64,000 nt of DNA from Vermamoeba vermiformis (Eukaryota). The translations under genes were made by a program, and so were the position numbers. Under the pieces are notes generated by a model. It made no database searches. It was given only the letters and a program-made list of their open reading frames with translations, and was not told where the DNA came from. Shown here piece after piece: positions 1,692 through 59,226 of this stretch. Location: contig JBEWZL010000078.1 in the NCBI GenBank assembly GCA_045837725.1, forward strand, positions 62,001 through 126,000, given 5' to 3'. Position 1 is the first letter of the stretch. The number at the start of each line of letters is the position of its first letter.

Positions 1692-3785
<2,094 letters not shown>

Positions 3786-4083
3786 GAAGATTTGCGTTAA
3801 TTAAACTGACAGACAGATCGCAAAAATTAAATTTAAATTCGCTCACAATCATAAAATCTATTCATATTTATTCCCCCCTATTGACTGACACATGGCCTGT
3901 TTAACGACCTCTCAGTCACTGTTACTTATGAGGCTCGCATGTCAACAGTCAACGGTTGATCTGTCAGCAAAATGGCACGTTGTACCGAGCAGATCCGATT
4001 TGAATTAATTAAATTATTTATTTACAATAATTATTCGAATTATTATTTACAGCTTGAAGAAAGATTGGATTCAAAATTGCAAA

Positions 4084-8300: not shown

Positions 8301-8416
8301 CCGAGTACTTGAGTCCGCAGTTGAACGGCAGTGGTCGTCGCATGGTCTATTGGACCGGGGCTGTCAGTCTCGTGCTCGGCACACTGATTGGCCTCGTTGT
8401 CCTCGCGCTGCTGTAA
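5328..8416 (+). CDS. Spt23/Mga2-like membrane-tethered transcription factor (DNA-binding domain, IPT/TIG, ankyrin repeats, C-terminal TM segments)
   Basis: KSRVETQIRLRL, CYGCIQRERK, RVTCYCRHH, MITDDHK (Spt23/Mga2 motifs). Basic NLS-like RKRRR, IPT LIPTQGPLSGGLEVTLLGANF, ankyrin TGATLLHYAA/DKNGCTPLH/GDKPLD, hydrophobic C-terminal helices. Start ATG 5328 inferred. Confidence 0.85.
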
Positions 8417-31939: not shown

Positions 31940-32151
31940 AGCTCTCGTGTGTTCACGAAACAATTAGGCGTTGTTAAGTGCACTGCTATAATCAACTCCT
32001 CACATATGTAAATCAATTGCTGTTTTGTAACCTCCCCTTTGAAAAATAAACCCATCAAAACAAACATACGACACCTTCAGACCAAGTTGTTTTTAAAATA
32101 AACATTGACTCCTTCGCACTTTATTGATACAAGTTCATGCTGCGAGAAATC

Positions 32152-33015
32152 TTATACCTTCTCTTCAATAAGACCGTCCTTGAAGACATAGAAGTAAGGC
32201 TCGGGATCAGAACCCTTGTAGAACTTGAACAAAACGATGCCTTCCATGTTTTGGCTTTGACCAACATAGAATTCGAATTCGTCAAAAGCGCCCAAGATCT
32301 TGTTCTTGACGAAAGCCTGAATAATCATGAATTAGTAAATAAATTGTCCGATCGGGGAAAAAAAAAAGACGGATCACAAGAAAAAAAAAGAAAGTAAGGG
32401 AATACTTACGGCAGCAGCCTTTTGGAAATCAGCAACACGACCAGGGTTAGTGGCTTCCAAGTGCTTCTTGAGGGCAGCCATGTAGCCCTTGATGTAGGCC
32501 ATAAAGTCGCTCTTGCCCAAAGTGGTGGGTTCCAAGTTGTGGGCAGCAACCAAGTTGTTGACGGTGACGGCACCACTACCAGCCTCGTTGGGGTCGTTAG
32601 CCTCGACGTAGTCATCGTCGTTTTGAACGATGTTCTGGCAAAATCCAAGGTCAGTTATTTTGTTTTGGATTGGGGTTGCGTTTATTTGTATCCGCGCTTA
32701 CCTTGGTCTTGACTTCGTAGACAACGTCGTCAACAACGGTCAAGGGGAAAGAGTCAGAGAGAACTTCGTCTCCTACAAGCGAATAAAATGATCAGCGGAT
32801 TTTAAATCGCAAAACTAAAATCGCAATTCAGCACTCGCAAAATACAAATAAAAACAATAATAAATATTTTCTTTTTAACACTAGCTTTAACTCAAGTATT
32901 TCGCTAATTAAATGGAAGGGCAAGATTAGATCGTTGCGCCCGGGAGCGATCTAGACTTGAGTATCCAGGCAAATATAAAATACGTACCAGAAATAAAGTC
33001 CTTGTAGATTTTCAT
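32152..33015 (-). CDS. TPT1: Translationally controlled tumour protein (TCTP), multi-exon
   Basis: MKIYKDFISGDEVLSDSF, YEV, NNLVAAHNL, FMAYIKGYM, FDEFEFYVGQS, PYFYVFKDGLIEEKV*. Strong codon bias of a highly expressed gene. Confidence 0.95.
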
Positions 33016-33212: not shown

Positions 33213-36200
33213 ATGGCATCCGTTAGTATTGTAAAACGGAATACGGCGGTGCCAAAAATTTGGATCGACACGTTAGCCCATCTAACTGAAGATCTAAAGA
33301 ACAAGTAAGCGCTTTTTTGAAAGCTGACAATGCCACTTCATTCATACTGATTGTATTGTTTTTCATTTAAAGAGATGAAGACATAAGAAACAAGGCAACC
33401 AAAGAGCTGGCTAAATATGTAAAAATCTTTTACTTGCCCATTTTATTTATCACCCTTATGAATTAATTAATATACCGTTTATGTTTGTATCAATTTATCG
33501 CATATAATTTCCATGTTTTGATTGAATTTTACAAAACATTACAATATTCAAATTTAAATTTAATATAACTCACTGATCCAGGTCGAAGAACAAGCCAGAG
33601 AATTGAAAGGAGAATTATTTGCACTGTTTATAAACGATGTTAATACTCACATATTTGAACTGCTGAACAGCAACAATAATCTCGATAAACTTGGCGGAAT
33701 CACAGCTATCAGTGCGTATTATGATACATCAATACCCGAATGACGACCATGCAGTTTATTGATTGTACTATTGTTGTTCACTACAGATGAGCTGTTGGAC
33801 GTGGATTTTCAAGAAGATATTGCAAAGTTGACACGTCTCGCTGATTTCTTGCGACTGGGCCTGTCGAGCAATGATGCCGCGGTGATTTCACTCTCAGCCA
33901 AGGCACTCGGTCGATTGAGCAAGCTCGATGGCAGCCGCACCATGGCCTACGAGATGTGCGCCACTGAGCTGCGCACTTGGCTCGAAGTGCTGGCCGAGAA
34001 AGATCGTTACGAAATGAAGCGACAAGCAGCAGTCACAGTGCTGGCTCAACTCGCGAGCAGTGCGCCGTCATTGTTCTATCTCAATCTCAACAGGTAAGCT
34101 CTTATATTGGCGTGACTGGTGACTAGTCGCAGTACTCATTTGTTGCCGCAGATTTTTAGAACTGATTTGGGTGGCATTGCGCGATCCTAAATTGACCATT
34201 CGAACGGTATGCAATCGAGATATATCCCCAAGTACGTGATCTCACCACCATCAATACAGACTGCGAGTGAGGCGCTAGGAGCGAGTTTGAAGTTGATCGC
34301 AGAGCGTGAGAACACGTGGCAGCTGATGAAAAAAGTGTTCGAAGAGGCGAAGAAAGGACTGCGCGCCACAGCGATGGAGAGCATTCACGGCTCACTGCTG
34401 GTGCTGTGCGAGATGTTGAACAACACCAATTCATTCTTCAAAAATCACGAGCGATTCAACGAGATTGGTCAAATACTGCTCAAATTCCGCGAACACAAAG
34501 AGAAGTTAGTGCGCATCACGTGCATTAATATGATGCCTAGACTAGCCATGGCCAATCCTGAGTCATATGGCAAAGATTTCTTGGACAACAGCATTGTATT
34601 TCTGCTGGGCGTAGTGTCCAAGTCCAAAGAAGATCAAGAGCGCCAATCAGGCTTCATTGCTATTGGTGAAGTTGCGGTGGAGGTGAAAGATCTGATCAAG
34701 CCTTACTTGGACAAGATCGTCGAAGAGGTGCAGAACACGCTCAAGTCCAAGAACAAAGTGTGCGGTGACGAGGCACTGATGTGCATCACACTGCTCGCCA
34801 AGGCCATTGGCATTGGTCTGCACCAGGGCTGCGGCATGAAAGATCTGTTGGACAACATCTTCAGCGTGGGACTCACCGAGAAGTTGGTCGAATCACTCGC
34901 CGCACTCGTGCTGCACATCCCAACACTGCTCAAAGAGATTCAGCTCCGACTCATGGACGTGCTCTCCTCCACTCTCACGCGCGAGAAGAGAGCGCAGGCC
35001 AATCCCGCTGCACTGGTGAAGAGTGGCTCGTTCTTGAACAGACTCGCGCCCGGTCGCAAGAAATCTATCGTGGGAGGACGCGACAAGCTGACCAAGACCG
35101 GCACGCGCGAGAGTGAGGGCGAGGGTGACGGCACCAACAAGGACGATTCAGCACTCACGGCCCTGGCTCTCAAGACACTGGGCTCGTTCAATCTGCAGGG
35201 CTACATCAGCAACATGGACGAGTTCTTGCGCGACATTGTGACGCAGTTCCTCGACTCTGACAACGCCGCTATTCGCAAAGAAGCAGCGCTCGCTTGTGCT
35301 CAACTCGCAGCCCGTGCAGAGGGCTCGACGACAGTGCTGTTCGAACAGAACTGGCTCTTCTCGAGCAACAACACCGCAGCACAGTCGAGCAGTCTGGTGG
35401 CAAACATCACGGGACCCCTCAGTGCGCCACTGCCCGTCAGCAATGCAGCAGCTGTGTCCCCTGCTGGCACACTCAAGTCCCCGGCACTCTTCTCCGCTGG
35501 TCGGCAAGCTCGTCCCCCCTCACCGCAGCTGCTCGCTCAAGTCGTCTCGCTGCTACTCGTGGTGGGCACAGCAGATCCAGAGCCCTCTATTCGCGAGACG
35601 GTCATGTCTTCGCTCGACCCCAGACTCGACGGCTATCTCTCGCAGCCTGACAATCTGCGCTCGCTGTTCATCTCGCTCAACGACGAGGTGTTTGAGATCC
35701 GTGAGCTCGCGATTGCCATCATCGGTCGCTTGGCTATTCGCAACCCCGCCTATGTGATGCCCTCGCTGCGCAAGACGCTGATTCAACTGCTCACCGAGCT
35801 CGAGTTCAGCGGCGACAACAAGAACAAAGAAGAGAGTGCCAAGCTGATCGGCACGCTGATTCGCACCAGCAAGCACATGATCAGACCCTACGTCTCCTCC
35901 ATCGTCACTGCGCTGCTCGCCAAGCTGCCCACCTATCAGCACCCTGACAAAGATCCGCGCGTCTCGCTCGCAGTGCTGGGTGCGCTGGGTGAACTGGCGC
36001 TGGTGGGCAGCGAGGAGGTCGGAGCTCATCTCGATGTGCTGCTGCCCTTCATCGTGCAGAGCTTGCAGCAGACCAGTGTCTACAAGCGCGAGATTGCCTT
36101 GCGCGCGCTCGGTCAGCTCGTCGAGTACACGGGCCACATTGCAGCACCTTACAGCCGCTATCCAGAGCTGCTCGACATTCTGCTGCACCTTGTCAAGAGC

Positions 36201-39200
36201 GAGAAGACCAAGAGTGTGCGGCGCGAGGTGATCAAAGTGCTGGGCATACTCGGCGCGATTGATCCCTATCAGCACAAGCAAGCCAAGCTCAAGACCACGC
36301 GTGCCGACAAGTTGGTGCCGCACGAGGCCTCGCACCCCGCGCACTTGCACCCGCGCAAACTCTCTGAACGCCGCAACTCCACCATGGTCAGCAAGACAGC
36401 GTCACGTGATCAACCGGGGCCACTCAGCAGTCTCGGACCATTCACCGAACACTACTACAGTCTGGTGGCCATACACGCACTGGCCGATGTGTTGAAAGAG
36501 GCCTCGCTGTCCGCCTATCACAGCAAGGCCATTCAAGCGCAGATCACCATCATTCGCGAGTGTCTGGCGGGACAACAAGCGGAAGAATTCTTGCCGCTCG
36601 TGCTGCCACCACTGCTGCACATTGTGCGCCACGGCGAAGTGCAATCGATGAACTCACTGCTGCAAGATCTCACCACGCTGATTGCCCTCGTGAAGCGACC
36701 TATTGCCGAGTACTTGGAGGACATCTTCGAGATGGTGCTGGAGTGCTGGCAGAATGACTGGCTGCCGAGTCTGTTGCACCTGATTGAAGTCATCTCCGTG
36801 GTGCTGGGCGACGAGTTCAATGTCTACCTGCCCATCCTCTTGCCCAAGATGCTCGCGGTGCTCCACGCGGACTTCAGTCTCAATCACGGCCTCACCAAGC
36901 GCGTGTTGACGGCGCTGGAGCTGATTGGTCCGCACTTGGACGACTACTTGCACCTGATCACGCCAGCACTGATGAAGGTGATTGAGGAGCTCAATGTCTC
37001 CAATGACGTGCGACTCATGGCCATCAATGCATTCGGTCGACTCTCGCGCGTGCTCAACTTCAGCGACTATGCCTCGCGCATCATTCACCCCATCGCGCGT
37101 CTGCTGCAGGACTACGCACTGAGCACGGACATCAAGCACGCCGCGGTGGATGTGCTGTGCTACATTGTGTACCAGTGCGGCTCTGACTACGTGGTGTTCA
37201 TTCCCATGCTCAATCGCATTCTCAACGACCAGCAGTTCAATCACACCACCTACACCAACATGGTCTCCAAGCTCTTGAAGTCGCAGCCCTTGTTGGAGAC
37301 TGATCTGCCCCGCTTGCCCGAAGCTCGCGAGTCGCGCAGCAACACAGCAGACGGCGATGCACGCGCACTGGGCCCGCACGCAGGCACGACACAACTGCGC
37401 GTGGACGAGAGTCGCCTCAGCAAGGCCTGGGGAGCCTCACCACAGTCCACCAAAGAGGACTGGGACGAGTGGTTCCGTCGCCTGTCGATTGAACTGGTGC
37501 GCGAGAGTCCTGAGCCCTCGCTGCGGCTGTGTCTCGAGCTCGCAGAAGAGCACTACCCCCTCGTGCGCAGCTTGTTCGATCCTGCCTTCATCTCCTGTTG
37601 GCGCGCACTCTCGCAGCAGGGCAAGGACGAGCTCACGGACAATCTCGTGGTGGCACTCAAGTCACCGCACATCCCCGCTGATGTGCTGCAACAGCTGCTC
37701 AATCTCATCGAGTTCATGGAGCGAGCACGTGTGCCACTCAAACTGCTCTCCATTGACGAGCTCGGTGCACTCGCCGAGAAAGCACGTGCTTTTGCCAAGT
37801 CTTTGCACTACCGCGAGCTGAAATTTCACAGCGATTCCAATGCCAAGACCCTCGCAGCACTCGTGACACTCAATCTGCGTCTGCAACAGAGCGATGCAGC
37901 GCGAGGACTGGTCGCCATGGCCAAGAGCTCGCTGGGCCTCGCAGCACCTCCTGCTTGGCTGGCGGAGAGTGGTCGCTGGGAAGCAGCGCTCAGCGAGTGG
38001 GGCGGTGCAGACGGCGAGTGGCGCACTGATCCGCTCGGGGCACTGCGCTGTTTGCGAGCCCTGGGAGATTGGAGCGCACTCTCGACCAGGGCCACGCGCA
38101 TGTACCGCGACAATGCCCTGGACGAGAGCGTCAAGTCACGTGCCATCATCTGGGGTGCAACAGCAGCGTGGCGCACGAACGAATGGCACAACTTGAGCGA
38201 ACTGAACACGGCGCTGAGTGGTCTGACTGCGAGTGTGGAGAACAGCGCACTGGGCACGCAAGAACTGCTCGAGGCACTGCTCGACCGCGCGGTGCTGTAC
38301 TTGCACGGCAGACACTGGGACCAGCTGCGACACGTGATTGGCGTGGCACGTGACATGATCGACGGAGAATTGAGTTCGCTGGCCTCTGAGTCGTACTTGC
38401 GCGCCTACGACATGATCGTGCAGCTGCAACTGTTCACTGAACTCGAAGAGCTCGTCGAGTACCAGTACATTGAGTCGCAGCTGGCCACTGATCGGCGCAG
38501 GGTGATGGAGACCATGTGGCAACAGCGCCTCGCCACCATGACGCGTCGTGTGGATCACTGGCAAGAAGTGCTCGCCGTGCGCGCCTTGTTGTTGCCTGCT
38601 GATCGCCAGCTCGACGACTGGCTCACCTTCTCGCGCATGTTGCAGAAAGAGGACAGACCGCTGCAGAGTCAGCGCGTGCTGGCACAGCTGTTGGGTGTGA
38701 GTGCTGGAACCCTGGTCGATGTCAAGTCACATCCGGCAGTGTTCACTGGCACTGGGCCACGCGTCTACTACCACTACTTGCACTTGCAGTGGACACTGGG
38801 CCACAAACAGTTCGCCATCGATCAGCTGCGCGCACTCACCGCACACCTCGGCAGCGACACTACTGCCACGCAATCCGCGCTGCTGGCACGGTGCCACTTG
38901 AAGCTGGGCGAGTGGCAGTATCAACAGCTGGAAGGAGGGCAGCCATTCGATCTCAAAGTGCTGCAAGAGGTGCGTCGTCATCTGCAACAGAGCACGCAGC
39001 ACAGACCTGACTGGCACAAGGCCTGGCACGCGTGGGGTCAGTTCAACTTTGAATGGGCAGCCTACCTCGAGCGACAGGGCTCAGCGACCAACACCTCGGG
39101 ACTGGACACTGTGGAGGGCGCGGTTGTGACGGCGATTGGTGCCTTCTTCAAAGCCATTTCCCTGGCCCCGCAGCCCTCACTGCGCGACACGCTGCGCTTG

Positions 39201-41147
39201 CTGACACTGTGGTTCAAGCACGGCCCCAAGAGCAAGGCTGTGATTGGTGCGCTGCAGCAGGGCTTTGGATTCCACACCGCTCGATCACGTGCGCAAGACG
39301 ATCCTGCGCTGACAGTGTGGCTGCAAGTGGTGCCGCAGATCATTGCGCGCATGGACGTGTCGGAGGTGCACACGCGTCAGATCATCTTCGAGCTGTTCGA
39401 TCAGTTGGGTCGCTCACATCCGCAAGCACTGGTCTATCCGCTCACCCTCAGCGCCAAGTCACAGGACGTCAATCGGCAGACACTCTCGCGCTCCATCATG
39501 GACAGCATGCGCCAGCACAGCAGTCACGTGCTCGATCAGGCACTGGTGGTCAGTCAAGAGCTGATTCGCGTGGCGATCACGTGGTGGGAGGCCTGGCACG
39601 AGGGGCTGGAAGAGGCGAGCAAGTTCTTCTTCAACGAGAACAACATTGAGGGCATGCTGCAAGTGCTGCAAGGACTGCACAAGACGATCCAATCGGGCCC
39701 CGAGACCATCATCGAACTCGCCTTCCACCAGTCCTTTGCGCGCGATCTGAGCGAGGCTGAGGCGTGGCTGGGCCGCTATCAGAGCAGCAACAACGAGCTG
39801 TGTCTGCACCAGGCCTGGGACCTGTACTACATTGTGTTCAAGCAGATCTCCAAGCACATCACCAATCTCACCTCGCTCGAGCTCAAGTACTCCTCGCCCA
39901 AGCTCTTGCAAGCACGCGAGTTGGATCTTGCAGTGCCTGGCACCTACAAGCCCGATCGCGCGGTGGTGCGCATTCACCACTTTGCACCGCAGCTGTCCGT
40001 CATCTCCTCCAAGCAGCGACCGCGCAAGCTGCGCATCAAGGGCAGCGATGGCACGGACTACTCGTTCTTGCTGAAGGGACACGAAGATCTGCGCCAAGAC
40101 GAGCGCGTGATGCAGCTGTTTGGACTCGTGAACACGCTGCTCAACAATCACCGCAAGACCTCCGATCGACATCTGCGCATTCGTCGCTACAGTGTCACGC
40201 CACTCTCGCCCTACTCGGGACTCATTGGCTGGGTGCCACACTGCGACACCTTGCACCAGCTCATTCGCGAGTACCGCAACAGCTGCGAGCCCAAGCTGCC
40301 GATGAATCTCGAGACCAAGCTCATGGCCAAGTTTGCAGGTGACTACAATCTGCTGACACCCATTCAGAAAGCGGAGGCCTTCAAGTACGTCACCACGCAG
40401 ACTGACGGACAGGACCTGGCACGTGTCATGTGGCTGTCCAGTGTCACCAGCGAGGCCTGGCTCGAACGACGCACCAACTACACGCGCTCGCTGGCTGTCA
40501 TGTCCATGGTGGGCTACATTCTGGGCCTCGGCGATCGACATCCGAGCAACATTATGATCGATCGCCACACTGGTCACGTGGTGCACATTGACTTTGGTGA
40601 CTGCTTTGAAGTCGCCATGCAGCGCGACAAGTTGCCTGAACGCGTGCCCTTCCGTCTGACGCGCATGCTGATCAATGCCATGGAGGCCTGTGGAATTGAA
40701 GGCACATTCCGCACCACGTGTGAGAGTGTCATGGCCGTGCTGCGCGAGAACCGCGACAACTTGATGGCAGTGTTGGAGGCCTTTGTGTACGACCCGCTGA
40801 TCAACTGGCGCCTGTTGGCTGCATCGACGCGCAAGAAGAGTGCGAGCGATGAAGTGCCAACGAGTGACAGACTGCTCGCTGATGAGGACGAGCCTGAGCA
40901 ACAGTCCCCCGCTGAGATCAGCAAGACATTTGCAGGGGATGTGGCGATCATTGGACACGCCAAGGTCGAGGAATTGAATGCCCGTGCACTGTCCGTGCTG
41001 AGTCGTGTGCACAAGAAGCTGACTGGTCGCGACTTCAAGCAACAAGAGCCCCTTGATGTGCAGCGACAAGTGAACAAGCTAATCATGCAAGCCACGTCAT
41101 TGGACAACCTTTCACAGTCGTACTTGGGTTGGTGTCCGTACTGGTAA
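33213..41147 (+). CDS. TOR: Target of rapamycin kinase (HEAT, FAT, FRB, PIKK kinase, FATC)
   Basis: SLRKTLIQLLTELEFSG, FRB ELIRVAITWWEAWHEGLEEAS...QAWDLYY, SKQRPRKL, LLKGHEDLRQDERVMQLFGLVN, GLGDRHPSN, HIDFGDCFE, FATC ending GWCPYW*. Five introns before 34260. Confidence 0.98.
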
Positions 41148-48790: not shown

Positions 48791-51700
48791 ATGGCTGATC
48801 TAAGCTCACGAGCCTCATCTTCAAGCCTCGGCGAGGGATTTGGTCAAGAAGAGCCGATTACAGGTGCGAGACTAGCAAAACAGTCATTATGAGCCCTGGT
48901 GTGACTAAACTCCTCATTGCAGTGCGCATCCGCAACATCTTAGCCGAATATCCGGTGACCAATCTCATCAAAGAATTGCTGCAGAATGCCGATGACGCAC
49001 GTGCCACACGCGTGAAGGTAACTAAAAATAGCACAGCACGTGACTGCGTACTGATCAGCGTGTCAGCTCATCATTGACAAGCGCTGGCACCCCACCACGC
49101 GCTTGATCGAACCAAAATTAGCTGCGCTGCAAGGTGAGTGTCGTCGTTCCGTTCATTGCCAAATTAGGCAATTCATTCCATTGCAGGTCCGGCTCTGATC
49201 GCCTACAACGACGCGCCGTTCACGGACTCAGACTTTGCAAATATTCGTCGCTTGGGTGCCAGCAAGAAGCGCGGTGATCCAGGTCAGTGTCCTCCACAAG
49301 CGAGCTAAATATAGAAATATGTATATATTGCAGTAGTATATGTACACATTAGTATATATGCATGCAGTACTATGTCCCCCATGTCACTCACACCCCTCGT
49401 CAGGTGTGACAGGTCGCTTTGGCATCGGCTTCAACTCGGTGTATCACGTGACAGATATTCCGTCGTTCATCAGTGGCACGCAGCTGGCATTCCTCGACCC
49501 GCACGAACTGATTTGGCAGTCACGTGGCATCAAGTTTGACATGACCAGCACGGTGAGTGACACCTGTCAAACGCTGTTCGAGAGTTATTCCGACCAGTTT
49601 GCGGGATTTCAAACGGACACGCTGCGTGTTGATGGCACTGCTGTCACTGGCACATTGTTCCGCCTGCCACTGCGCACCAATGAATCACGTGCTCCGTTCC
49701 CCGAAATTTCCGACGAAGATACCGTGAGTGATGTCACGTGGACGGCAGAAGATCTCGAGCGATTGTTTACCATATTTAGACAAGAGGCGCATCTGATCTT
49801 GCTGTTTTTGAGATCGGTGGAACAGATCGACTTCCTTATTTGGCACGAAGATCAAGTTGTTCCGCAGCAGCTGTTCACGGTGGCACTCAGCCAGCTGTCA
49901 GACACTGACCGCGCACTGCGTGCTGTCCTTCACGTAAGTTCGATCGATCGATCACGTGATGCAGTGCACTGACGCTATTTTTAGGACCCTGAACAGCCCA
50001 TTCGCCGATATTCACTGAACGTGACCCTCCGCGCGGATGATCACGTGACGAGTGAGGTGTACCGAGTGGTCACGTGCTCGCAGTCCCTGAGCGCAGATGA
50101 AGCGCGAGATATGTGAGTGATGTTCATGAAAGAAGTACTGCAGCAATAATAATGAAGTGCAGTACTCTGTACCATACAAACACTATACACAATAAGTACT
50201 AAATAGACCATACCAGTACTAATTACAATGAGGTGCAGTGGACTGAGTGACAAAGAGCTGCGCAAATTAATTCCGTGGGGTGGAGTGGCCACGCGACTGC
50301 ACCGAACAGCTGCAAAGACTGACCACACGCAGTCACGTGATCAACAGAGTCACGTGTTCTGTTCGCTGCCCGTGACACTGAGTGGACTGCCCGGTACGTG
50401 CTGTAGTGTACTCGATGGTACTATTGTACTGCATCCTTAATTATATATTCATGGTTACAATGCACCACTCATTACACTTACTATTATGACACCATCACTC
50501 ATTACACTTACTATTATTACACCATCACTCATTACACTGCATTGTACCTCCCTACTGACCCCCTCCCCCTCGTGCAGTGCATCTCAACGGCTGTTTTGAA
50601 CTGTCCGCGAGTCGCACGGCACTCTCCTGGCACGAATACGCGCGCAAAGATCACTGGAACCGTCACGTGCTCACTGCTGTCGTGTCACGTGCCTACATGC
50701 ACCTCTTGCACGACTGTCGGCAACTGCTCGTAAGTCACGTGCTCAGTCTTTGCGGGTGTGTATTCACGCTATAGCTATATTTAGACCACAGCGGAATATT
50801 ACGCGCTGTTTCCGAACGTCAATCACGTGCTGCACGATTGGGAGCGCTATTTTTGCACACAACTGGCACGTGTGCTGCACGACGAGCACGTGATTCGATT
50901 CAAAGATGCGTGGATTACACCAAATAAGGCAATTTGGCCTGGGTCTCACGTTGTGTTGGGCGAAGCACTGCGCACGTGGCTGATGGATAATTATCCACTC
51001 GTCGAGACCCCTGACCACATGCTGGCACTCTTCGCGCACGTGACCGGTAAGCGACTTGCCTAATTAGGAAGCTGAATTCTAACCGACACTTGCAAGAGCT
51101 GCAAAGTCATCGCTTGACACCTGTCACACTGATCACGTGGCTCGCTGGACACGACGACTGGTTGCTGGCACTGCGCACCAACACCGCGGTGTATAACCAA
51201 TTATGGCAATTAATGTTCACGCTGCCGGATGAGGAATATGTCAAAGTGTACGAGGTGCCACTGCTGTTCACTGAAAGCGGAACATTAGTGCGCATGAGTG
51301 ACCAGTCCTCGCACGTGCCGTACTACGTGATCAGAAGTGCGCGCTTGCGTCAAATCTTTGCAGAAATTCGCAGCTCACTGATCGATGTGAGCTTGTTCAC
51401 TGAAACAGTGCTCTCCAAGCTGATTGAAACGCGGTTCATGAATGCGCGGAACATTGAACACGTGACCACACTGGAGTCGCACCTGCACGTGCTGTTGCCA
51501 CCAGTCGCAAATGATTGCAAAGTCATCGCACGTGATGCGAATTCATTTCCGCGCAATGATTGGCTAAAACTGGTCTGGCAATATCTCGCTGCGGAGAATT
51601 GCGATTTGTCCGCGTACGATCACGTGCCACTGATCCCAGTCGAGTACGTAACTGTTACCATTATTTAGTGCAATGTTTAACGGTTATTTTTAGTAACGGC

Positions 51701-54700
51701 GCTGGATTAGTTCCTGTGCGGCACTCGAGTCACGTGATCAATATCTCCGCGCGAGATGGTGACCAAGTGCCAGTACACGTGCTGCAACAACTGCAATGTC
51801 ACGTGCTCGACGCAGATCTCCAGCGCGAGATCACACAGTCACGTGCCACGCTGTGCAGTGCTGACCCCGCGCACGTGATGCAGTTGTTGGCCACGCTGCA
51901 CGGCACGCAGCTCGGTAGCAAAGTGACAGCACTGAGCAGCGAGCACAAGCGAGATCTGCGGAGATATTTTGTGCGCACCATCAAGCAGTGGCACGTGACA
52001 TCGCGAGAGCACGCGATTTTGAAACAGTTGCAAATATTCGAGCTGGTGGGTACCAAAAATAGCAATCGATTCGTCAGTCTCGCGCAGTACAAGTCACGTG
52101 CTTCAGGTACGCCACTGTGTTGCTAAAAATAGTCGCACTCACCGTGTCGTGCAGTGCAGTGTCACGTGCTCGATATCTCGCTGCCACTGATCGACTGTGC
52201 CCTGGACGAGACAGCATTCTTTGACAGCATTGGCGTGCCACCGATCTCCACCGTGGAGTTGTTCCGTGCCCATCTATTTATAGATCAGCTGTTTCAGACC
52301 CTCACGTCACATCAGCAGCGCGAATTGTTGCAAACACTGTTCAAGACGAGCACGCTGAAGAATTGCGACGCAGAATTCTTGGAATTGGTGCGGAATTATC
52401 CGTGCATCACGTGTCAGGACGGCAAGGTAAGCAGTCACGTGACACTTTGGCAGTCGCCACCACTCACCGTTCACTGAAACAGCTCCGTGCACTGAATGCC
52501 ATCTACGACCCCGACAACAAGGCCGTGACTGAGCTGCTGGCACTGGCACGTGATTGCTGTCACGTGGTGCCACTGCCCGAACAGTACTGGCAGGAGAGCA
52601 CGCAGCGCGGAGTATTTCTTGCTGGCATGCGATTGGTGGGATTCTGTCACGTGCTGCGCGTGCAAGATCTGCAAACATTGCTGTTAACTTTGCAGTACGT
52701 GAGTTGGGTGTCACGTGCTCGCTGTACTGATTGCTATATTTAGACATATGCCCGCATCGAAAGCAGTCTCGCTGGCCACTAAATTATTCCGCTACGTGGT
52801 GTCGCAGTTCAGTGAATTGCAGTCGCAAGGTGTCTCGCTCGAATTCTTGCGTCACGTGCCCTGGTTGCCGTTGTACAGACCGATCAGTCACGTGATTCCG
52901 CCGTTCAGTGAATTGCAAGATGACACGTGCCTCGTGTCACCGCTGAGTTCACAGCCACGTGCGCGTCAATCATTGGTCAGCGCTGTGATGCCACTTGCCA
53001 GCGTAGATCTCCCATCACGTGATCACCCGTTCGTGCAGTACGTTGAGTGGCACTTGCCTATTTCGGTCAGCAGTCTCGTGCAGCAGTTGAAGGCTGTGGC
53101 AAAGCTATTTTTAGCACTCACTACCAAGCCCGCGGCACTATATTTGCAGGAATTGGAGCACGTGATTCATGAAATCTACGGGCACTTGGACGAACAGCTT
53201 GCAATCTCGCCCGATCTCGCAGAAGTGTTGCAAAGAAATGTTGCTGGTACCGAGCACGTGATCTGGACTGGCACGCAGTTCGTCACGCCGCAACAAGTGG
53301 CACTCACGTGTCAGCTGCAAATCAAGCCCTGGGCGATGAAAGTTCCTCCGAAATTCGCGCAGTTCAAGCACGTGACGCAACACATTGGATTCATGAAAGA
53401 GTTCGGTGCGGAACATTATCTGCACATCGTGTCGGAACTGCACGCGCAGTACGGTGGCACAGCGTTGAGTGCCAAACATCTCAAACAGGTGCTAAAAATA
53501 GTCACGTATCTCGGACGGGAGATTCTCACTCACGGCGCAGATCACGTGCCACTCGATCACGTGCTGGTGCCCACCACAGCCGGTGTGTTGAAGAGTGCGC
53601 GCACGGTGGTATATCAGTCACGTGACACCACGCTGGGCAGTCAACCGCTGAGTCACGATCTCGTGCACGCGGAGATCGCTCCGGAGTACTGTCGCGCACT
53701 GGGCATTGCACCGATGGACAAACTGCTGCTGCAGGACTGCATTCGGCCCTTCGGTCAGGTAACGGACACAAGCCCCATTGAATATATGTCCATATATAGA
53801 CGTCACGTGCGCTACTGACCCCCTCCCCCGCAGCGCCAAGAGCTCGTGCACCGCTTGAAGAATGTGCTCGTGGATTATCCGCCCTCGAGTCTCATCGCCG
53901 AGATGTTGCAGAATGCCGGTACGTACTGCCACCACATGCTAAAAATAGCACTCACTCGATCGGAACAGATGACGCGGGTGCCACGCAGTTCAGAGTGGTA
54001 TACGATGCGGAACAATATCCGACCAATCAGCTCGCACTGCCCCTGCACGCGCTGTTAGAGACGCCAGCGCTGGTATTCATGAACGACGCTGCGTTCAGTG
54101 AAGCAGATCTGCAAGCGCTGATTCTGATCAGGTGCGTGCCTGTCTCACCGTACTCGTGCTAATCATTGCAACTATTCTGCAGCAAGGGCAGCAAGCAGCA
54201 CAGTGCCACCACGATTGGTCGCTACGGACTGGGCTTCAATGCCGTGTACAACGTGACCGACACGCCCATGCTGCTCACTGGCGACCAGTTGGTGGTGTTC
54301 GATCCGCAATTGGAATATCTCCGCAGCTGGAGCTCCGACAAAGAACCAGGTACGCTGGCACGTGACTACCAGCGCAGATGTCGCTAACAGAGCGGTGCAG
54401 GGGTGTGCATTCAATTCACCGCGCCCAACCATCACGTGCTCAACGGAGATCTCCTGGCCCCGTTCCGACACTTCGGAGTGGATCCGACACGACCCTTCAA
54501 CGGCACTATTTTTAGATTGCCACTGCGCGCCAAAAAAAGCAAAATTAGCCCCACGATCTGGACAGAAGAGCACGTGCTGGATTTGTTGCGAAAATTTTCA
54601 GCTCTCGGAACAGCTCCGATGATATTCCTGCAGCACGTGGAACAAGTGCGCGTGCAGTCACGTGACAAGCTCGGTGACACGCAGTACGTGCAGCACTTGG

Positions 54701-57700
54701 TGGAGGTGAAATCTCCGAGTAATTCTCCGCCACACTCCCGCGCTCTGTTGGAACAATTCACGTCTGCAGATCACGTGGCTGGCATGCTGGCACATCGTCT
54801 GACCATTCACAGCACGTACAGCGGACTGTCGAGTCACCACCACGTGACTGAGCACCAAGAATGGCAAGTGTGCCACCAGTGTGCCACGTCACCAGATGAG
54901 GACGCACGTGACAAGCTGCCGATCGGTGGAGTGGCACATTGCCTCTCTGATGTAGACAAGTCACGTGCTGGTAAATATCTGCAATGATTGAATTCTATTT
55001 TTAGCTCACCGCGCTGTGCAGGGCGACTGTTCTGTTTCTTGCCACTGCCGATCAACTTGTCTTTGCCGATGTTCATCAACGGCTATTTTCAGCTCTCATC
55101 GGCACGCACGTCGCTCACGCAGGGCACGTGGAATGAAATTCTGCGCGACGGACCGATCTTCGACTGCTACTGGCACTCGATGATGAATTTGCGCAAAGAC
55201 TCGCCCGCAGCGTACTGGTAGGTCTATTTTTAGCACCGAGATGTTAATGCAAGTCAATCACTGACCACTCTGGGACAGGGCGGTGTTCCCACAGAGCGTG
55301 CACGACAGCAAAGACTTCTGGAATCCACTGGTGACACGTGTCTATCAGCAACTCGCGCGCGAACCTTCCTTATTTGTCATGGGTGAGTGGCACTAACAGC
55401 ACGTGATGTCAGTCTATTAATAGCAGCAGAGAGTCATCGGCTCGTGCAGCCACGTGATGCAATCTATTACGGCGATCAGGCACGTGATCAGGGACTGGAC
55501 GAGACACTGCGGAATTATTTGCTCCAAGTGCTGCACGTGCCACTCGTTGCGTGTCCGCGGCACGTGATCGAAGAGTTCAAGCGCGTGGATGTCACCATTG
55601 CTAATTTTAGTCCGAAAGTACTGCGCGAATTCATCAAACAGCACGTGATCAATTTGGAATATTCTGCCGAGGCTTTGCAAGTATTGCAGTACTGTCTCGA
55701 GGACCTCAAGCCTGCCACTGCCGCTGAACTCCTCGGTATGACACGTCATTTTTTCACAGTTCTCATGTTGACACGTGTCATTGACAGGCTTGCCACTATT
55801 GCCCGTGAAATCTCGTGCACTAGTCAGATTCTCAACGAAATCTCCGTGCATTCTCGGTGAGTCCAAAAATAGTGAAATGTTCGTCGCTGACCAGCCGTCC
55901 AGTCCATTCACTGAACGAGTACGAATTGTTCCCCCCAACATTGCACGCCAGACTGGTCGACATTGAAGTTGTCCCGCGCAATCTAGTGCAAATCTCGTGC
56001 GCAGATATGGGAGTTATTCCGCTGTCTCTTGATGTATTGCTCGATCTCGTGTCGGAGATACTTCCGACAGCCTATCACCGTCAGCACGTGATCAACCATC
56101 CTGCACCGAGTGTGTTGCAGTGGCTTTACCATTTTTGGCAATGGATTCGACGCCAATGTGTCACGTGGCCTGGTTCACTGAACCAAAGCTCGGCTGATTC
56201 GTCCGAGTCACTGATTGACACGCTGTGCAGTCGACTGCACGACTGGCCGATTGTGCCGACTGGTACGTGACACGTGTCAACTCAAAGACCGGTGCTAACG
56301 CGTTCACTGAACAGTCTCTGAACAATTAGTGACACCAAATACTCCGCTATTCTACCAGGGCTCCCTGCCAGCGGAACATTTCGAGCTGACGCTGGCACAC
56401 CGTCTCAACTGTCAGTTCATTGACACGCAGCAGTATCACGTGCCTGTTGAATTCACTGAACGGCTCTATCTGCCGAACATGCTCAATATACTCAAATATT
56501 CCGCCAAATCTCGCGAAACTCTCGCCAGGTATGTCTATATTTGGTAAGGTCACGAGCTCATCTCCCTTGCAGATTCAGTGAATTATCTCCGATTGAACGA
56601 GATCGTGCCCTGACACTCATCGCGCAACTCTCCGACAGCGAGATCGATGTGTACTGCGCGCTGATTCGTCAGTTGCCGCTGTTCCCACTCGTGCACGAAT
56701 TGCCGCAAAGACTCACTGACCTGGCACTGCTCGCTGCTGCTAATTATAGCCGCGAGGTGATGGCACCTGAACTCTGGCAGCAGACACGTGACACACTGAA
56801 CACGTTCTTCTACACGGCTGTCATCGTGCCACTCCGCGCGAGTGCTGTCGCGTTGCTGCGCGATCAGTCGTTGCCACCAGTGCCACTCAACACTGCCGTG
56901 CCGTTCATTCGACTGCTGCACGCGCGATTGTACAAGCGACTCGGTGTGCGCGCAGTGAGCAGTGCGGACTATTTGACCAATCACGTGCTGCCACACCTTG
57001 CGCAACTTGACGATCCAAATATGGTATTGGAGTACATTGCCGAGCACTGGTTACAATTGCGCGAATTCTCGCCGTTACTCCACGCCTTGCGAAATCTCGC
57101 GTTTGTGGCACATGGCACTGGCTCGTCGGTCTGCGCACGTGATTTGTACCACCCTGAGCACGTGATCTATCGTGTACTGTTTGCAGGTAGGACTAGACTG
57201 ACTGCGGCTATTTTTAGCACAACACTGACCTATGCTGCACAGAGCAACCAGAGCAGTTCCCAGCAGAGCCGTACAACTCCGTCACGTGGCTGTCAGTGCT
57301 GCGAGATCTCGGCATGCACGTGACTCCGAGTGCCGATGACGTCATCAGAGCTGCGCAGATATTAGCGGAGAAACTATCCTTCGATTATTCCGATCCACAG
57401 CTCTTGCAATCTTTGCAATCATTTTGGGGGTTCGTGCTCGAAGAGAAATTGTTGCAATCATTGCCACAACTCCGTTCACTGAAACTCGTGGTGGCACTGT
57501 GGGATCATCGTGAACGCATTGACGGGGAGGGGAATTTCAGCGACCAATCACGTGCGCATAGTTGTTCCGCTCAACGATGTTGGCTTCGATATTGAGCGGG
57601 AGTTGGTATGACATAATTATGACTAAATTAGGCAATGATCTCACGCTGTATCTCGCCAGATCTGGACGCAACAGCCCATCATTGACAGCGAGGTGTTCGG

Positions 57701-59226
57701 GTCAAATTTGGTCAACGAGCTCTTCATGCAACATCGCACGGTTGCCAATCACGTGACACCGCTCGACATTCACTTGGGTGAGTGACACTTTCCTAATTTA
57801 GACAAAGACTAATCCGTGGCAGTCTACTCGCACTTGACGACTGTGTTGCAGCGAGTGCGCGACAGAGCACGTGATCAGAGTGTGTGCGGCAATGTCTTCG
57901 TTCACGAACAGGTGGTGCGACAGTACGAACTTGAACCGACGTTCAGAGAACTGTGGCGGTTCATGAACAGTCAAGTTGAGGCCCTCAGCGACGCATTAAT
58001 TGCACAGTTGCAAAGTCTGCCCTGGTTGCTCATCACGCAGCAATCTCGCTCGTATCTCGTGGCACCTAAAAATATCTTTGCTAATGTCAGCGCGCGACTG
58101 ATACCCCTCTGGTTTGCATTGCCAAATTTGTACACGACGCACGAGCTCGCGGTACGAGTGACACGTGGCGTGGAGCCGAGTACCCATGACGCACGTGTTG
58201 CTCTGCGTCAACTGCACGAGTCACGTGTTCGTATACTTCCGCAATCACCCGAGGGAGATACAGCCCACGTGACGGTAGATCTCGTGTTGGAGTTGATGCG
58301 ATTGGCTGCCACAAGGTCCGAGGATGAATTGGCGCAAAGTCAGATGGAGTTGCCAGTAGTAAGTCAGAATATTGGTTCATGAACGCAGTTGCTGAGCTGT
58401 TTTTAGCTGAACGAACATCACGTGCTTGTCCCCGCCAGTCACGTGTTCATTCGTGATCGACACGTGTCACACTTTCAAATCGACACTGCCGTGCAATTTT
58501 TGCACTGTGAGGTACGTCATTCTCGTTCACTTGCCTAATTTGGTCCATTAAATCTTTGCAAAGGTATCGCGTGACTTAGGTCTCGCACTGGGCGTGCAGC
58601 TCTTCAGTCAAATCATCGAAGAGCGAGTCGTGTCACACGTGACGGTCGAGAGTTCGCAGCGTGTGGCCGACGAATTGCTGCAAAGTCATCGAGAACTGCA
58701 GGAGATTGTTGCGCGCCTTCGTTCACCAATGTTTGCCGATGTTCTGGCGCTAATTCTCCGCGCTCAGAATCCTACGCTGAGCGAGCTGACCATTGCGCAT
58801 TCAGTGAATCAAATTAAGAAGTTGCGCGTTGTTTATTGTAGCGAAATTTCAACACAGCTCGTAGATCGGCGGAACAATTCTGTGTTGTCCCAGTCACGCG
58901 TCAATACCGCAATGTTAGTGCAACAGGATCAAGTGCGTGGCGACAAAGATTCACTTAGTAACTCTCGCTGACATGTTGTATTAACAGATATATGTGGCGA
59001 ACAAACCTCGCTTCATTCGCTGGTCAGATCTGCTGGCGCAACAGCTCAACAAATTTTTGAATTTCATGTTGACCGATCTGCTCTCACTGAGCGCAGTTCT
59101 GAATTGTGAAGAGAGGTGAGCGATTTGATTTGCAAACTATACAATCATTTTCATGGGGTACTAATGTCTGTAATTAGGGACATGATCGCGTGTTGTCTTG
59201 CCGTTGAGACTTCGAGCCCAAAATAG
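48791..59226 (+). CDS. Sacsin-like protein with two sacsin repeating regions (GHKL/HSP90-like ATPase), ~30 introns
   Basis: Repeat 1: FGQEEPITVRIRNILAEYP, KELLQNADDA, GPALIAYNDAPF, GRFGIGFNSVYHVTDIP, GTLFRLPLR. Repeat 2: FGQRQELVHRLKNVL, EMLQNADDAGA, IGRYGLGFNAVYNVTD, GTIFRLPLR, GRLFCFLPLP...INGYF. 3' end approximate. Confidence 0.88.
50466..50538. repeat. Intronic 30-bp tandem repeat (~2.4 copies)
   Basis: CACTCATTACACTTACTATTATKACACCAT repeated. Confidence 0.85.

What the first reader, a model, noticed from the sequence alone, without database searches (positions are those of the whole stretch)
49000..58700. Massive frame-independent CACGTG enrichment: a possible eukaryotic analogue of highly iterated palindromes (HIP1)
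CACGTG, mostly as TCACGTG/CACGTGA/GTCACGTG, saturates the sacsin-like gene. I count about 33 copies in 51060-53820 alone, where uniform expectation is under 1. It occurs in introns and in all three coding frames (HV, SRD/SRA/TRV, TW/TC), so the protein is conspicuously HV-rich and the cause must be at DNA level. It is also frequent in the Mga2-like, CPSF3, TOR and RasGEF genes, but essentially absent from TCTP, PSMB6, AT-rich 5' ends and the CpG-depleted island. Known parallels are cyanobacterial HIP1 and bacterial uptake sequences. TCACGTG is also the bHLH-ZIP (Cbf1/USF/TFEB) site, but here it lies in gene bodies, not promoters. Hypotheses: methylation-directed repair or mutation sink, a gene-body chromatin-organising protein, or a self/non-self mark. 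I know of no description of such a system in a eukaryote.
Basis: partly seen in the sequence, partly recalled or inferred. Interest (0 to 1): 0.88.

Follow-up and report, generated by a model that had tools for sequence, protein, structure and literature searches.

The report
Palindrome CACGTG saturates fungal gene bodies
In an unnamed chytrid-like fungus the short palindrome CACGTG is packed into genes, both coding parts and introns, so densely that it has changed the proteins, and no such system seems to have been described in a eukaryote.

Summary
CACGTG occurs 168 times in the window against 28.2±5.2 in dinucleotide shuffles. Ninety sites lie in 49000-58700. It is the commonest hexamer.

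- **Not codon or dipeptide usage:** the sacsin-like gene has 67 sites against 25.8 (synonymous shuffle) and 6.0 (codon shuffle). Other genes have 52 against 16.7 and 12.7.
- **Dyad-symmetric 10-mer:** the word is R-D-CACGTG-H-Y, with the same flanks in all three frames and in introns.
- **Confined to transcription units:** 3.6 sites/kb in exons, 4.6 in introns, 0.26 in intergenic DNA. Introns hold 27 against 3.6 shuffled; intergenic DNA holds 6 against 4.9.
- **Cost to proteins:** His-Val is 4.6-fold over-represented in the sacsin-like protein, beyond all 134 family controls. In TOR the sites overlie residues invariant in nine fungi.
- **Real DNA:** independent metagenomes and spliced RNA contigs hold the locus. 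Relatives keep the trait.

The mechanism is unproven. My best reading is an array of binding sites for a dimeric bHLH-ZIP-like protein, kept under positive pressure. A repair or gene-conversion drive is the main rival.

The parts
48868..59176 (+). Sacsin-like gene. It has many introns of about 50 nt and is the densest CACGTG array: 90 sites in 49000-58700, mean spacing 107 bp.
   Evidence: My model covers 48868-56996 with 23 introns. Spliced GT..AG joints in X8 contigs run out to 59113->59176. Pfam SACS domain at 49406-49933, E 4.7e-33. PDB sacsin. Site list. Spacing.
51060..53820 (.).
   Evidence: Counted from the list. Sequence read.
49016..49064 (+). A 49-nt intron that holds both CTAAAAATAG and CACGTG (site at 49037). 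It shows the word in a confirmed intron.
   Evidence: Joint 49015->49065 in a spliced X8 contig. Intron sequence. Site.
52745..53758 (+). Largest sacsin-like exon (338 aa) with 12 CACGTG sites, 7 of them read as His-Val. It was used to find relatives.
34191..41147 (+). TOR kinase open frame with 14 CACGTG sites. Several overlie residues that are invariant in other fungal TORs (for example DDK->ARV at 37726, YKV->ARV at 40420, KV->HV at 40575).
5836..8413 (+). Mga2/SPT23-like gene with 15 sites in its span (5.4 per kb of coding sequence).
10161..12148 (-). CPSF73-like gene with 7 sites in its span.
15447..19271 (+). Gene with 14 predicted introns. It has 0 CACGTG in its coding sequence but 6 in its introns, mostly as TGACACGTGTCA.
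31438..32731 (.). Proteasome beta subunit gene (+) and TCTP gene (-). These short housekeeping genes have 0 CACGTG sites.
29429..29898 (+). Coding tandem repeats that carry TGACACCTGTCA, the second core variant of the dyad word. They lie in a CpG-poor, low-complexity gene.

Best explanation
The feature is a lineage-specific, dyad-symmetric DNA word, R-D-CACGTG-H-Y (D = not C, H = not G). It has been driven to very high density throughout transcription units of a chytrid-like fungus, in exons in every frame and in introns, but not in intergenic DNA. I read it as an array of binding sites for a homodimeric sequence-specific protein, most probably a bHLH-ZIP of the Cbf1/USF/TFE type. On this reading, site density across gene bodies is kept up by positive pressure, for example to mark or organise the chromatin of transcribed genes. 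That pressure is strong enough to fix amino-acid changes.

Shown here: the enrichment, its independence of frame and codon usage, the dyad symmetry, the restriction to transcription units, the cost to proteins, its origin by substitution, and its persistence in relatives.

Inferred, not shown: that a protein binds the sites, which protein it is, and what the binding does.
For: - **Enrichment under every null model.** 168 sites against 28.2±5.2. In transcribed DNA, 162 against 31.2 under an order-2 model or 16.8 when the model is trained with the word masked. In coding sequence, 119 against 42.5 after synonymous shuffling, z = 18, the top hexamer.
- **Same flanks in every context.** Position -2 is a purine in 44 of 58, 39 of 43 and 15 of 18 sites in the three frames, and in 26 of 27 intron sites. 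Position -1 is C in only 5 of 58 frame-0 sites although C makes up 35% of third codon positions. Positions +1 and +2 mirror this. All four flanks fit in 100 of 162 sites against a baseline of 11.3%. This points to a two-fold symmetric reader of duplex DNA.
- **Half-site logic as in bHLH dimers.** In the 12-mer TGACA-NN-TGTCA the centre is CG (12 times), CC (17) or GG (5) among 34 cases, giving cores CACGTG and CACCTG. The centre GC, which would give core CAGCTG, never occurs.
- **Graded near-sites.** One-off cores such as CATGTG carry the same flanks more often than baseline (5 of 13).
- **Site exclusion.** No two sites lie closer than 14 bp (0 observed against 8.8±2.7 expected).
- **Other dyad words in genes.** CTA(A/T)4TAG and CC(A/T)6GG, which I recall as consensus sites of dimeric MADS factors, are also confined to transcription units.
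- **Pressure overrides the protein.** His-Val occurs 38 times against 8.2 expected in the sacsin-like protein, and 37 of the 38 are encoded CACGTG. Among 134 sacsin-family controls the maximum observed/expected ratio is 3.0 and the median 1.15. In TOR, 10 of 18 motif-encoded residues differ at columns invariant in 9 fungi, against 253 of 851 elsewhere (Fisher p = 0.034).
- **Persistence.** Relatives at 75-83% identity keep 4 of the 5 His-Val sites that all five sequences cover.
Against: - No binding protein, footprint or chromatin data exist for this organism, and no genome was available to look for bHLH genes.
- Sites for bHLH and general regulatory factors normally sit in promoters, and here intergenic DNA shows no excess.
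- Dense bound sites in gene bodies would be expected to hinder elongation or to create cryptic promoters.
- Site spacing is otherwise random, with no nucleosome-scale or helical period, which does not favour a role in ordering nucleosomes.
- Fixing changes at invariant TOR residues fits a drive at least as well as site-by-site selection.
- The flank T at -1 is only a plurality (74 of 168, with G at 49).
- The names attached to the consensus sites (Cbf1/USF/TFE, MEF2, SRF) are recalled, not tested.
Confidence: 0.38

Rival explanations
1. Molecular drive by biased repair or biased gene conversion. A sequence-specific enzyme pair, such as a CACGTG cytosine methyltransferase with a Vsr-like T:G mismatch nickase, or mismatch repair steered by a bound protein, converts near-cognate sequences into CACGTG. 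It would act in chromatin typical of gene bodies. The word would then spread without benefit to the host, as very-short-patch repair enriches CCWGG in E. coli (recalled).
For: - Among the nine one-off neighbour pairs, the deamination products CATGTG/CACATG are the most depleted in transcribed DNA (13 against 24.0, ratio 0.54, in the motif-masked model).
- The word replaces residues invariant in other fungal TORs, a cost that is easier to explain by drive than by weak per-site selection.
- Intron density is nearly the same in the sacsin-like gene and in other genes (5.5 against 4.3 per kb), while coding density varies five-fold (10.3 against 2.0). This is what a uniform pressure opposed by protein constraint would give.
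- Spacing is random.
- Its prokaryotic analogue HIP1 is tied to methyltransferases (abstracts of PMC4390886 and PMC13756078, seen in the listing).
Against: - CATGTG/CACATG are about as depleted in intergenic DNA (6 against 9.4), so the depletion is not specific to genes.
- CpG observed/expected is about 1.0 in exons, introns and intergenic DNA, so there is no sign of widespread CpG methylation decay.
- Several unrelated dyad words are enriched in the same compartment. That would need several such enzymes.
- The effect size (about 6-10-fold, and 25-fold or more locally) is far above what I recall for very-short-patch repair in E. coli.
- No methyltransferase or nickase gene could be looked for.
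Confidence: 0.27
2. A neutral by-product of an unusual context-dependent mutation spectrum and codon-context 'vocabulary' in this genome, with no reader of the word at all.
For: - The genome has strong dinucleotide biases. In exons CpA is 1.37, TpG 1.50, TpA 0.35 and CC/GG 0.6-0.66.
- Many other hexamers are 2.5-3.5-fold above the synonymous-shuffle expectation, for example TGCCAC 44 against 12.9 and CACTGC 55 against 17.5. This is similar in fold to CACGTG at 2.8.
- Given its pentamers, the hexamer is only 1.2-fold above expectation.
Against: - The other favoured words are strand-asymmetric, as codon-context effects are. CAAAGA occurs 43 times against 6 for its complement and AGTCAC 39 against 11. 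The CACGTG family is dyad-symmetric out to ±2 in every frame.
- Introns have nearly the base composition of intergenic DNA (45% against 42% G+C, same CpG ratio) yet 18 times the site density.
- The word stays enriched under order-3 models (CACGTGAC 73 against 10.5).
- There is no general excess of palindromes in transcribed DNA.
- Of the 43 other eukaryotic TOR loci, 26 show observed/expected of 1.2 or below and only one is similarly enriched at usable counts.
Confidence: 0.12
3. An RNA-level signal. CACGUG in pre-mRNA would be read by an RNA-binding protein, or copies would pair with each other (any two copies are complementary), to aid splicing, export or protection from silencing.
For: - The word is confined to what is transcribed, introns included.
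- 24 of 80 predicted introns hold it, often just 3' of the 5' splice site or at the branch point.
- It is kept in spliced RNA contigs.
Against: - The mirror-symmetric flanks are not expected of a single-strand reader.
- The intron word CTA(A/T)4TAG is used about equally in both orientations when internal: 6 T-rich, 7 A-rich and 3 symmetric.
- Close pairs that could form hairpins are not in excess (23 spacings under 40 nt against 27.2 expected).
- The TOR exon, 7 kb without introns, has 14 sites, while an intron-rich gene has none in its coding sequence. So there is no link to exon definition.
Confidence: 0.08

Closest known systems
HIP1 (GCGATCGC), the highly iterated palindrome of cyanobacteria
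   Same: Both are short perfect palindromes, several-fold to tens-fold over-represented and present in coding DNA whatever the frame. Both act at DNA level and are conserved among relatives. The function of both is unresolved. (What I saw: abstracts of PMC4390886 and PMC13756078 in the listing; the rest is recalled.)
   Different: This case is in a eukaryote, with a different word. It is confined to transcription units, introns included, and is not enriched in intergenic DNA. No link to methyltransferases is shown. Local density reaches 1 per 107 bp. The cost to proteins is measurable.
E-box sites of bHLH-ZIP factors (Cbf1/CDEI RTCACRTG, USF, and the TFE/MITF 'CLEAR' element GTCACGTGAC; recalled)
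   Same: The core is CACGTG, with T or G at -1 and a purine at -2, so GTCACGTGAC-like 10-mers are the commonest form (CACGTGAC 73 sites). Half-site combinations CAC/CAC and CAC/CAG both occur.
   Different: Known sites are sparse and lie in promoters or centromeres. Here there are 162 sites in 40 kb of transcribed DNA and none in excess between genes. No binding has been shown.
Very-short-patch repair signature in E. coli (CCWGG enriched, CTWGG depleted; recalled)
   Same: In both, a specific palindrome with a central methylatable C is enriched and its deamination product is the most depleted neighbour (ratio 0.54).
   Different: The magnitude here is far larger. The depletion is not specific to genes. 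No methylase or Vsr-like gene could be searched for.
Motif-density marks of chromatin domains (CpG islands read by CXXC proteins; C. elegans PATC introns; Drosophila MSL recognition elements; all recalled)
   Same: In each, a short DNA feature marks a class of genes or a domain by its density over kilobases, and it lies partly within gene bodies and introns.
   Different: Those features are low-complexity or periodic, do not sit in coding frames at a cost to the protein, and are not 10-bp palindromes. No periodicity is seen here.
DNA uptake sequences and Chi sites of bacteria (recalled)
   Same: They are over-represented oligomers found inside genes regardless of frame.
   Different: They are not palindromic and are orientation-biased. 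They are tied to transformation or RecBCD, for which there is no counterpart here.

Membership tests
HIP1-type highly iterated palindrome | A perfect short palindrome many-fold above composition-based expectation across the genome | tested here: inconclusive
   Met within the window (168 against 28.2) and in one other metagenomic locus (L011, 14 against 2.8). No whole genome was available.
HIP1-type highly iterated palindrome | Independence of reading frame and of codon usage | tested here: met
   Frames hold 58, 43 and 18 sites. The excess survives synonymous and codon shuffles.
HIP1-type highly iterated palindrome | Present in coding and non-coding DNA alike | tested here: not met
   Introns are enriched (27 against 3.6) but intergenic DNA is not (6 against 4.9).
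HIP1-type highly iterated palindrome | Cognate orphan DNA methyltransferases that recognise the core | not testable with these tools
   No genome and no modification data.
bHLH-ZIP E-box site (Cbf1/USF/TFE class) | CACGTG core with a dyad-symmetric flank preference (T at -4 from the dyad centre, A at +4) | tested here: met
   Position -1 is T 74, G 49, A 32, C 13. Position +1 is A 60, C 51, T 36, G 21. The same holds in every frame and in introns. The family's preference itself is recalled.
bHLH-ZIP E-box site (Cbf1/USF/TFE class) | Location in promoters, enhancers or centromeres | tested here: not met
   162 of 168 sites lie in transcribed DNA, and intergenic DNA shows no excess.
bHLH-ZIP E-box site (Cbf1/USF/TFE class) | Occupancy by a bHLH dimer | not testable with these tools
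   No protein or chromatin data exist for this organism.
Very-short-patch-repair-driven word bias | Specific depletion of the T:G deamination product of the enriched word | tested here: inconclusive
   CATGTG/CACATG are the lowest of 9 neighbour pairs (13 against 24.0), but they are about as low in intergenic DNA (6 against 9.4).
Restriction-site avoidance | Under-representation of the palindrome | tested here: not met
   The word is enriched, not avoided.
Transposon excision footprints or short insertions | Sites coincide with insertions relative to homologues | tested here: not met
   Most sites align without gaps to relatives and orthologues. YHV in the window aligns to YHI in human sacsin. 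In TOR, 12 of 14 sites are substitutions, one lies in an insertion and one in an unalignable stretch. In the sacsin-like exon, 12 of the 14 sites in the printed frame align without gaps in at least one relative beyond the 98% one.
General palindrome enrichment (template-switch mutagenesis) | Palindromes as a class are above expectation | tested here: not met
   In transcribed DNA, palindromic against other hexamers have mean log2 observed/expected of -0.057 against -0.063 (p = 0.22). For 8-mers p = 0.93.

The most novel reading that the evidence does not exclude
A eukaryotic counterpart of highly iterated palindromes that is tied to transcription. A dimeric sequence-specific reader (a bHLH-ZIP, or a methylase-repair pair) would drive a 10-bp palindrome to roughly one copy per 100-250 bp across gene bodies. 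The pressure would be strong enough to rewrite residues that are invariant in TOR elsewhere. Motif density itself would then act as a code marking transcription units as 'own, active' DNA. CACGTG would be only the strongest of a small set of dyad words (TGACACSTGTCA, TTCASTGAA, CTAW4TAG, CCW6GG) that fill this lineage's exons and 50-nt introns.
Probability: 0.3. Interest if true: 0.92.

Novelty: new variant of a known kind. Interest (0 to 1): 0.82.

Why it matters
Iterated palindromes kept by DNA-level pressure are known from bacteria (HIP1, uptake sequences, Chi). I found no eukaryotic case in five full-text searches.

Here a six-base core with symmetric flanks occupies about 6% of the bases of a 10 kb gene. 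It is blind to reading frame, fills a third of the introns and stops at gene borders. It has also shifted amino-acid composition and overlies residues of TOR that are invariant in other fungi.

That makes three open questions directly testable:
- How far a non-coding constraint can override protein constraint in a eukaryote.
- Whether motif density can specify gene-body chromatin.
- Whether sequence-specific repair or conversion drives operate in fungi.

The organism occurs in many public water and soil data sets, and a labelled relative has RNA-seq data. Follow-up is therefore feasible.

Tried and rejected
- **Own genome and earlier findings:** neither was available.
- **Search for longer relatives of the sacsin-like exon:** none found. 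Pfam on two internal exons gave no family.
- **Metagenome scan with the sacsin-like exon:** 326 pattern matches, none a relative.
- **Metagenome scan with TOR:** 43 loci, none from the same species. I used them only as composition controls. L011 is not measurably closer in TOR than other loci, although it shares two lineage-specific residues.
- **First versions of my gene finder:** the models were too fragmentary or over-linked. One search was an empty script.
- **General palindrome excess:** rejected.
- **Longer repeats as the source of the sites:** rejected. Only the word itself is shared between copies.
- **Insertion or footprint origin:** rejected for nearly all sites that could be aligned.
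- **Periodic spacing (3, 10-11, 21, 150-200 bp) and an excess of close pairs:** none found.
- **Rfam families in the window:** none.
- **Polymorphism spectrum from laid reads:** only 40 of 799 variant rows were shown, mostly from run X21. That run turned out to be a different species: 334 of its 355 laid reads are less than 95% alike. So gains against losses could not be counted.
- **Extra conservation of His-Val sites in relatives:** 4 of 5 kept, against about 0.45 expected per dipeptide. The sample is too small to call.
- **Supplements of papers:** not consulted.


Full report
**1.

CACGTG occurs 168 times in the 64 kb window. In 100 dinucleotide-preserving shuffles the mean was 28.24, sd 5.22 and maximum 43, and none reached 168. 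Ninety sites lie in 49000-58700. CACGTG is the commonest hexamer of the window, and half of all ACGT tetramers (168 of 334) sit inside it. Longer forms stay enriched under higher-order models. CACGTGAC occurs 73 times against 10.5 expected under an order-3 model.

**2. Organism and genes**

No whole genome is held for the window.

- **TOR.** The open frame at 34191-41147 finds only an unnamed 99% match. Named hits are at 52-60% identity, and nearly all of the highest-scoring ones are chytrids and other early-diverging fungi.
- **Pfam.** This confirms an Mga2/SPT23 DNA-binding domain (5836-7032), CPSF73 (10161-11222, minus strand), a protein kinase, a proteasome subunit, TCTP and a SACS domain (49406-49933, E 4.7e-33).
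- **Sacsin.** PDB sacsin entries 5v44-5v47 match the same exon. A search of 1.84 billion representatives returns large sacsin-like proteins with two or three matching stretches.

I take the organism to be an unnamed chytrid-like fungus.

I wrote a small dynamic-programming gene finder, trained on the window, because no annotation exists. Its introns are about 50 nt long and start with GTAAGT, GTACGT or GTGAGT. Spliced contigs of run X8 confirm several of them and carry the sacsin-like gene on to at least 59176. All class counts below depend on these models.

**3. Null models**

| Set | Observed | Synonymous shuffle (protein kept) | Whole-codon shuffle |
|---|---|---|---|
| Sacsin-like gene | 67 | 25.8±3.2 | 6.0±2.2 |
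| All other genes | 52 | 16.7 | 12.7 |
| TOR alone | 14 | 3.7 | 3.7 |

These come from 300 shuffles each. Further points:

- When every hexamer is tested against synonymous shuffles, CACGTG ranks first (119 against 42.5, z = 18).
- Other favoured hexamers exist at similar fold, but they are strand-asymmetric as codon-context effects are. CAAAGA occurs 43 times against 6 for its complement.
- In the other genes His-Val is not over-represented (21 against 17.2), yet all 21 cases are encoded CAC GTG.

**4. Anatomy of the word**

The flanks are mirror-symmetric and the same in each context.

- Position -2 is a purine in 44 of 58, 39 of 43 and 15 of 18 sites in frames 0, 1 and 2, and in 26 of 27 intron sites.
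- Position -1 avoids C: 5 of 58 in frame 0, where C makes up 35% of third codon positions.
- Position +1 avoids G and position +2 is a pyrimidine.
- The only exception is forced by the code: in frame 2, A at +1 would make a TGA stop.

All four flanks fit in 100 of 162 genic sites, against 11.3% of random positions. The word is thus R-D-CACGTG-H-Y.

In the sacsin-like gene the 91 sites have a mean spacing of 107 bp. No two lie closer than 14 bp (0 against 8.8±2.7 expected). There is no period at 3, 10-11, 21 or 150-200 bp.

**5. Where the word lies**

| Class | Sites per kb | G+C | Observed against dinucleotide shuffles |
|---|---|---|---|
| Exons | 3.62 | 55.5% | not run for this class |
| Introns | 4.64 | 45.3% | 27 against 3.6±1.7 |
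| Intergenic DNA | 0.26 | 41.7% | 6 against 4.9±2.3 |

CpG observed/expected is about 1.0 in all three classes. Other results:

- Transcribed DNA holds 162 sites against 31.2 under an order-2 model, or 16.8 when the model is trained with the word masked. The rest of the window holds 6 against 4.7.
- 24 of 80 predicted introns carry the word. One of them, at 49016-49064, is confirmed by a spliced contig.
- Intron density is alike in the sacsin-like gene and elsewhere (5.5 against 4.3 per kb). Coding density differs five-fold (10.3 against 2.0 per kb).
- One gene (15447-19271) has none in its coding sequence but six in its introns. Short housekeeping genes (TCTP, proteasome and others) have none.

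The pattern looks like a roughly uniform pressure on transcribed DNA that protein constraint resists to different degrees. A low-complexity, CpG-poor gene (26529-30513, 1.6 per kb) does not fit that simple picture.

**6. Cost to proteins**

- **Sacsin-like protein.** It has 38 His-Val against 8.2 expected and 4.8% histidine. Among 134 sacsin-family proteins of 400 aa or more from elsewhere, the median His-Val ratio is 1.15 and the maximum 3.0. Histidine has a median of 2.6% and a maximum of 3.9%.
- **TOR.** The 14 sites often overlie residues identical in nine other fungal TORs: DDK becomes ARV, CHA becomes ARA, YKV becomes ARV, ILW becomes ITW, and KV before the DFG motif becomes HV. At columns invariant in the nine, 10 of 18 motif-encoded residues differ, against 253 of 851 others (Fisher p = 0.034). 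The effect is modest, and this TOR is divergent overall.
- **Origin by substitution.** YHV here aligns with YHI in human sacsin. In TOR, 12 of the 14 sites align as substitutions, one lies in an insertion and one in an unalignable stretch.

**7. The sequence is genuine and the trait is shared**

The 8 kb query is held by runs from nine studies, including water, soil and aquifer metagenomes. Contigs of X4 and X10 lie on the locus at about 97-98% identity, for example 13 differences in 565 nt. X8 contigs are spliced and cover motif-bearing exons with 0-3 differences. The word is therefore in independent DNA and is retained in RNA.

Four relatives of the largest exon exist, at 98, 80, 75 and 83% identity.

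- His-Val at 53159, 53255, 53543 and 53558 is kept in all five sequences.
- The site at 53369 varies (HV, HA, HL, HL, HV).
- Two frame-2 sites are absent in the three more distant relatives (the 98% relative keeps both).
- The three more distant relatives have a His-Val where the window has Ser-Val.

The trait is therefore old and shows turnover.

Among 43 TOR loci from other eukaryotes in metagenomes, 26 have an observed/expected ratio of 1.2 or below. Seven exceed 2, but six of these rest on 8 sites or fewer. Only L011 is enriched like the window (14 against 2.8). L037 (3 against 0.9) overlaps it and shares its sites. L011 has a His-Val-rich open frame and similar flanks.

**8. Other dyad words**

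CACGTG is the strongest of several dyad words in genes. Against dinucleotide shuffles of transcribed DNA:

| Word | Observed | Expected |
|---|---|---|
| TGAC-N4-GTCA | 34 | 1.6 |
| TTCA-N1-TGAA | 24 | 0.8 |
| TCACGTGA | 22 | 1.5 |
| GCTA-N4-TAGC | 8 | 0.2 |

- The 12-mer TGACA-NN-TGTCA has only CG, CC or GG at its centre (12, 17 and 5 of 34), never GC.
- CTA(A/T)4TAG occurs 36 times, 27 of them in introns. Eleven of those serve as the 3' splice site and 16 are internal, in both orientations.
- CC(A/T)6GG occurs 23 times, with one in intergenic DNA.
- 50 of 80 predicted introns hold at least one such word.
- Palindromes as a class are not enriched.

**9. Mechanism**

The symmetric flanks argue for a two-fold symmetric reader of duplex DNA. 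The restriction to transcription units argues for a link to transcription or to gene-body chromatin.

My best reading (0.38) is an array of binding sites for a dimeric bHLH-ZIP-like protein, held by positive pressure. The evidence for it is:
- the consensus (recalled);
- the CAC/CAC and CAC/CAG half-site pattern;
- graded near-sites;
- the 14-bp exclusion between sites;
- the company of other words that look like transcription-factor sites.

The main rival (0.27) is a repair or gene-conversion drive. It fits the uniform intron density, the random spacing, the hits on invariant residues, and the fact that the deamination products CATGTG/CACATG are the most depleted neighbours (ratio 0.54). That depletion is also seen between genes, however.

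A neutral by-product of context-dependent mutation (0.12) and an RNA-level signal (0.08) fit less well, for the reasons given under the rival explanations. The first two readings are not exclusive, since a bound protein could bias repair.

**10. Comparison and novelty**

The closest known thing is cyanobacterial HIP1. This case shares its frame-blind, DNA-level, conserved character. It fails one HIP1 feature, presence in non-coding DNA generally, and cannot be tested for another, the cognate methylases. As a binding site it matches the bHLH-ZIP E-box in sequence but not in location.

Five searches of the paper library found no description of such an enrichment in a eukaryote. I saw listings and abstracts only, read no paper in full, and supplements were closed. 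I file it as a new variant of a known kind (an iterated palindrome under DNA-level pressure). The transcription-unit restriction and the set of companion dyad words are its new elements.

**11. Limits**

- Only one 64 kb window and one 5.7 kb second locus were examined.
- The gene models are my own.
- There are no polymorphism, methylation or binding data.
- The family names given to the consensus sites are recalled, not tested.

Noticed in passing
window, e.g. 7066, 8112, 9078, 11232, 15657, 16443, 16961, 17488, 25662, 46740, 55769, 56268 (CG centre); 2296, 7366, 16314, 18580, 27670, 28058, 49558, 51115, 60634 (CC centre): The 12-mer TGACA-[CG/CC/GG]-TGTCA occurs 34 times, against 1.6 expected for TGAC-N4-GTCA. 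The centre is never GC. The CG form lies mostly in introns (8 of 12), just after the 5' splice site or overlapping a CTGAC branch point. The CC form lies mostly in exons.
   Followed up: partly
window introns, e.g. 49020-49029, 52125-52134, 51685-51694: CTA(A/T)4TAG occurs 36 times, 27 of them in predicted introns and only 2 in the AT-rich intergenic DNA. Eleven form the 3' splice site. Sixteen are internal and occur in both orientations. The word equals what I recall as the MEF2/Rlm1 MADS consensus.
   Followed up: partly
window, 26 sites, e.g. 51267, 51396, 52470, 52808, 52904, 56452: TTCA[C/G]TGAA, an odd-length palindrome with a C or G centre, occurs 26 times (TTCA-N1-TGAA 24 against 0.8 in transcribed DNA). 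It is found in exons in two frames and in introns.
   Followed up: partly
window, 23 sites: CC(A/T)6GG, which I recall as an SRF/Mcm1-like CArG box, occurs 23 times with only 1 in intergenic DNA.
   Followed up: no
window 28001-30000 and 42001-44000: Two 2 kb stretches have CpG observed/expected of 0.66 and 0.63, against about 1.0 elsewhere. The first lies in a low-complexity Ser/Pro/Thr-rich gene (26529-30513) that has 45-bp coding tandem repeats near 29429-29898 and few CACGTG sites.
   Followed up: no
window 34191-41147: This TOR differs at 253 of 851 positions that are identical in nine other fungal TORs. It is an unusually divergent orthologue of a very conserved kinase.
   Followed up: partly
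L011 1-5709 (overlaps L037): A second metagenomic eukaryote has 14 CACGTG against 2.8 expected and a His-Val-rich open frame at 3519-4589 (minus strand). Its TOR shares DRHTG and EVAMQ with the window, where other fungi have DRFTG and EVAMH.
   Followed up: partly
window 50463-50552: Three tandem 30-nt units lie inside a long (184 nt) predicted intron of the sacsin-like gene.
   Followed up: no
whole window: CCGG is strongly under-represented (observed/expected 0.26 on mononucleotides). This goes beyond the general CC/GG deficit of 0.70.
   Followed up: no
runs: RNA-seq run X21, filed under the same species label as the likely source sample, is mostly under 95% identical to the window (334 of 355 laid reads). 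The label therefore seems to cover more than one species.
   Followed up: partly
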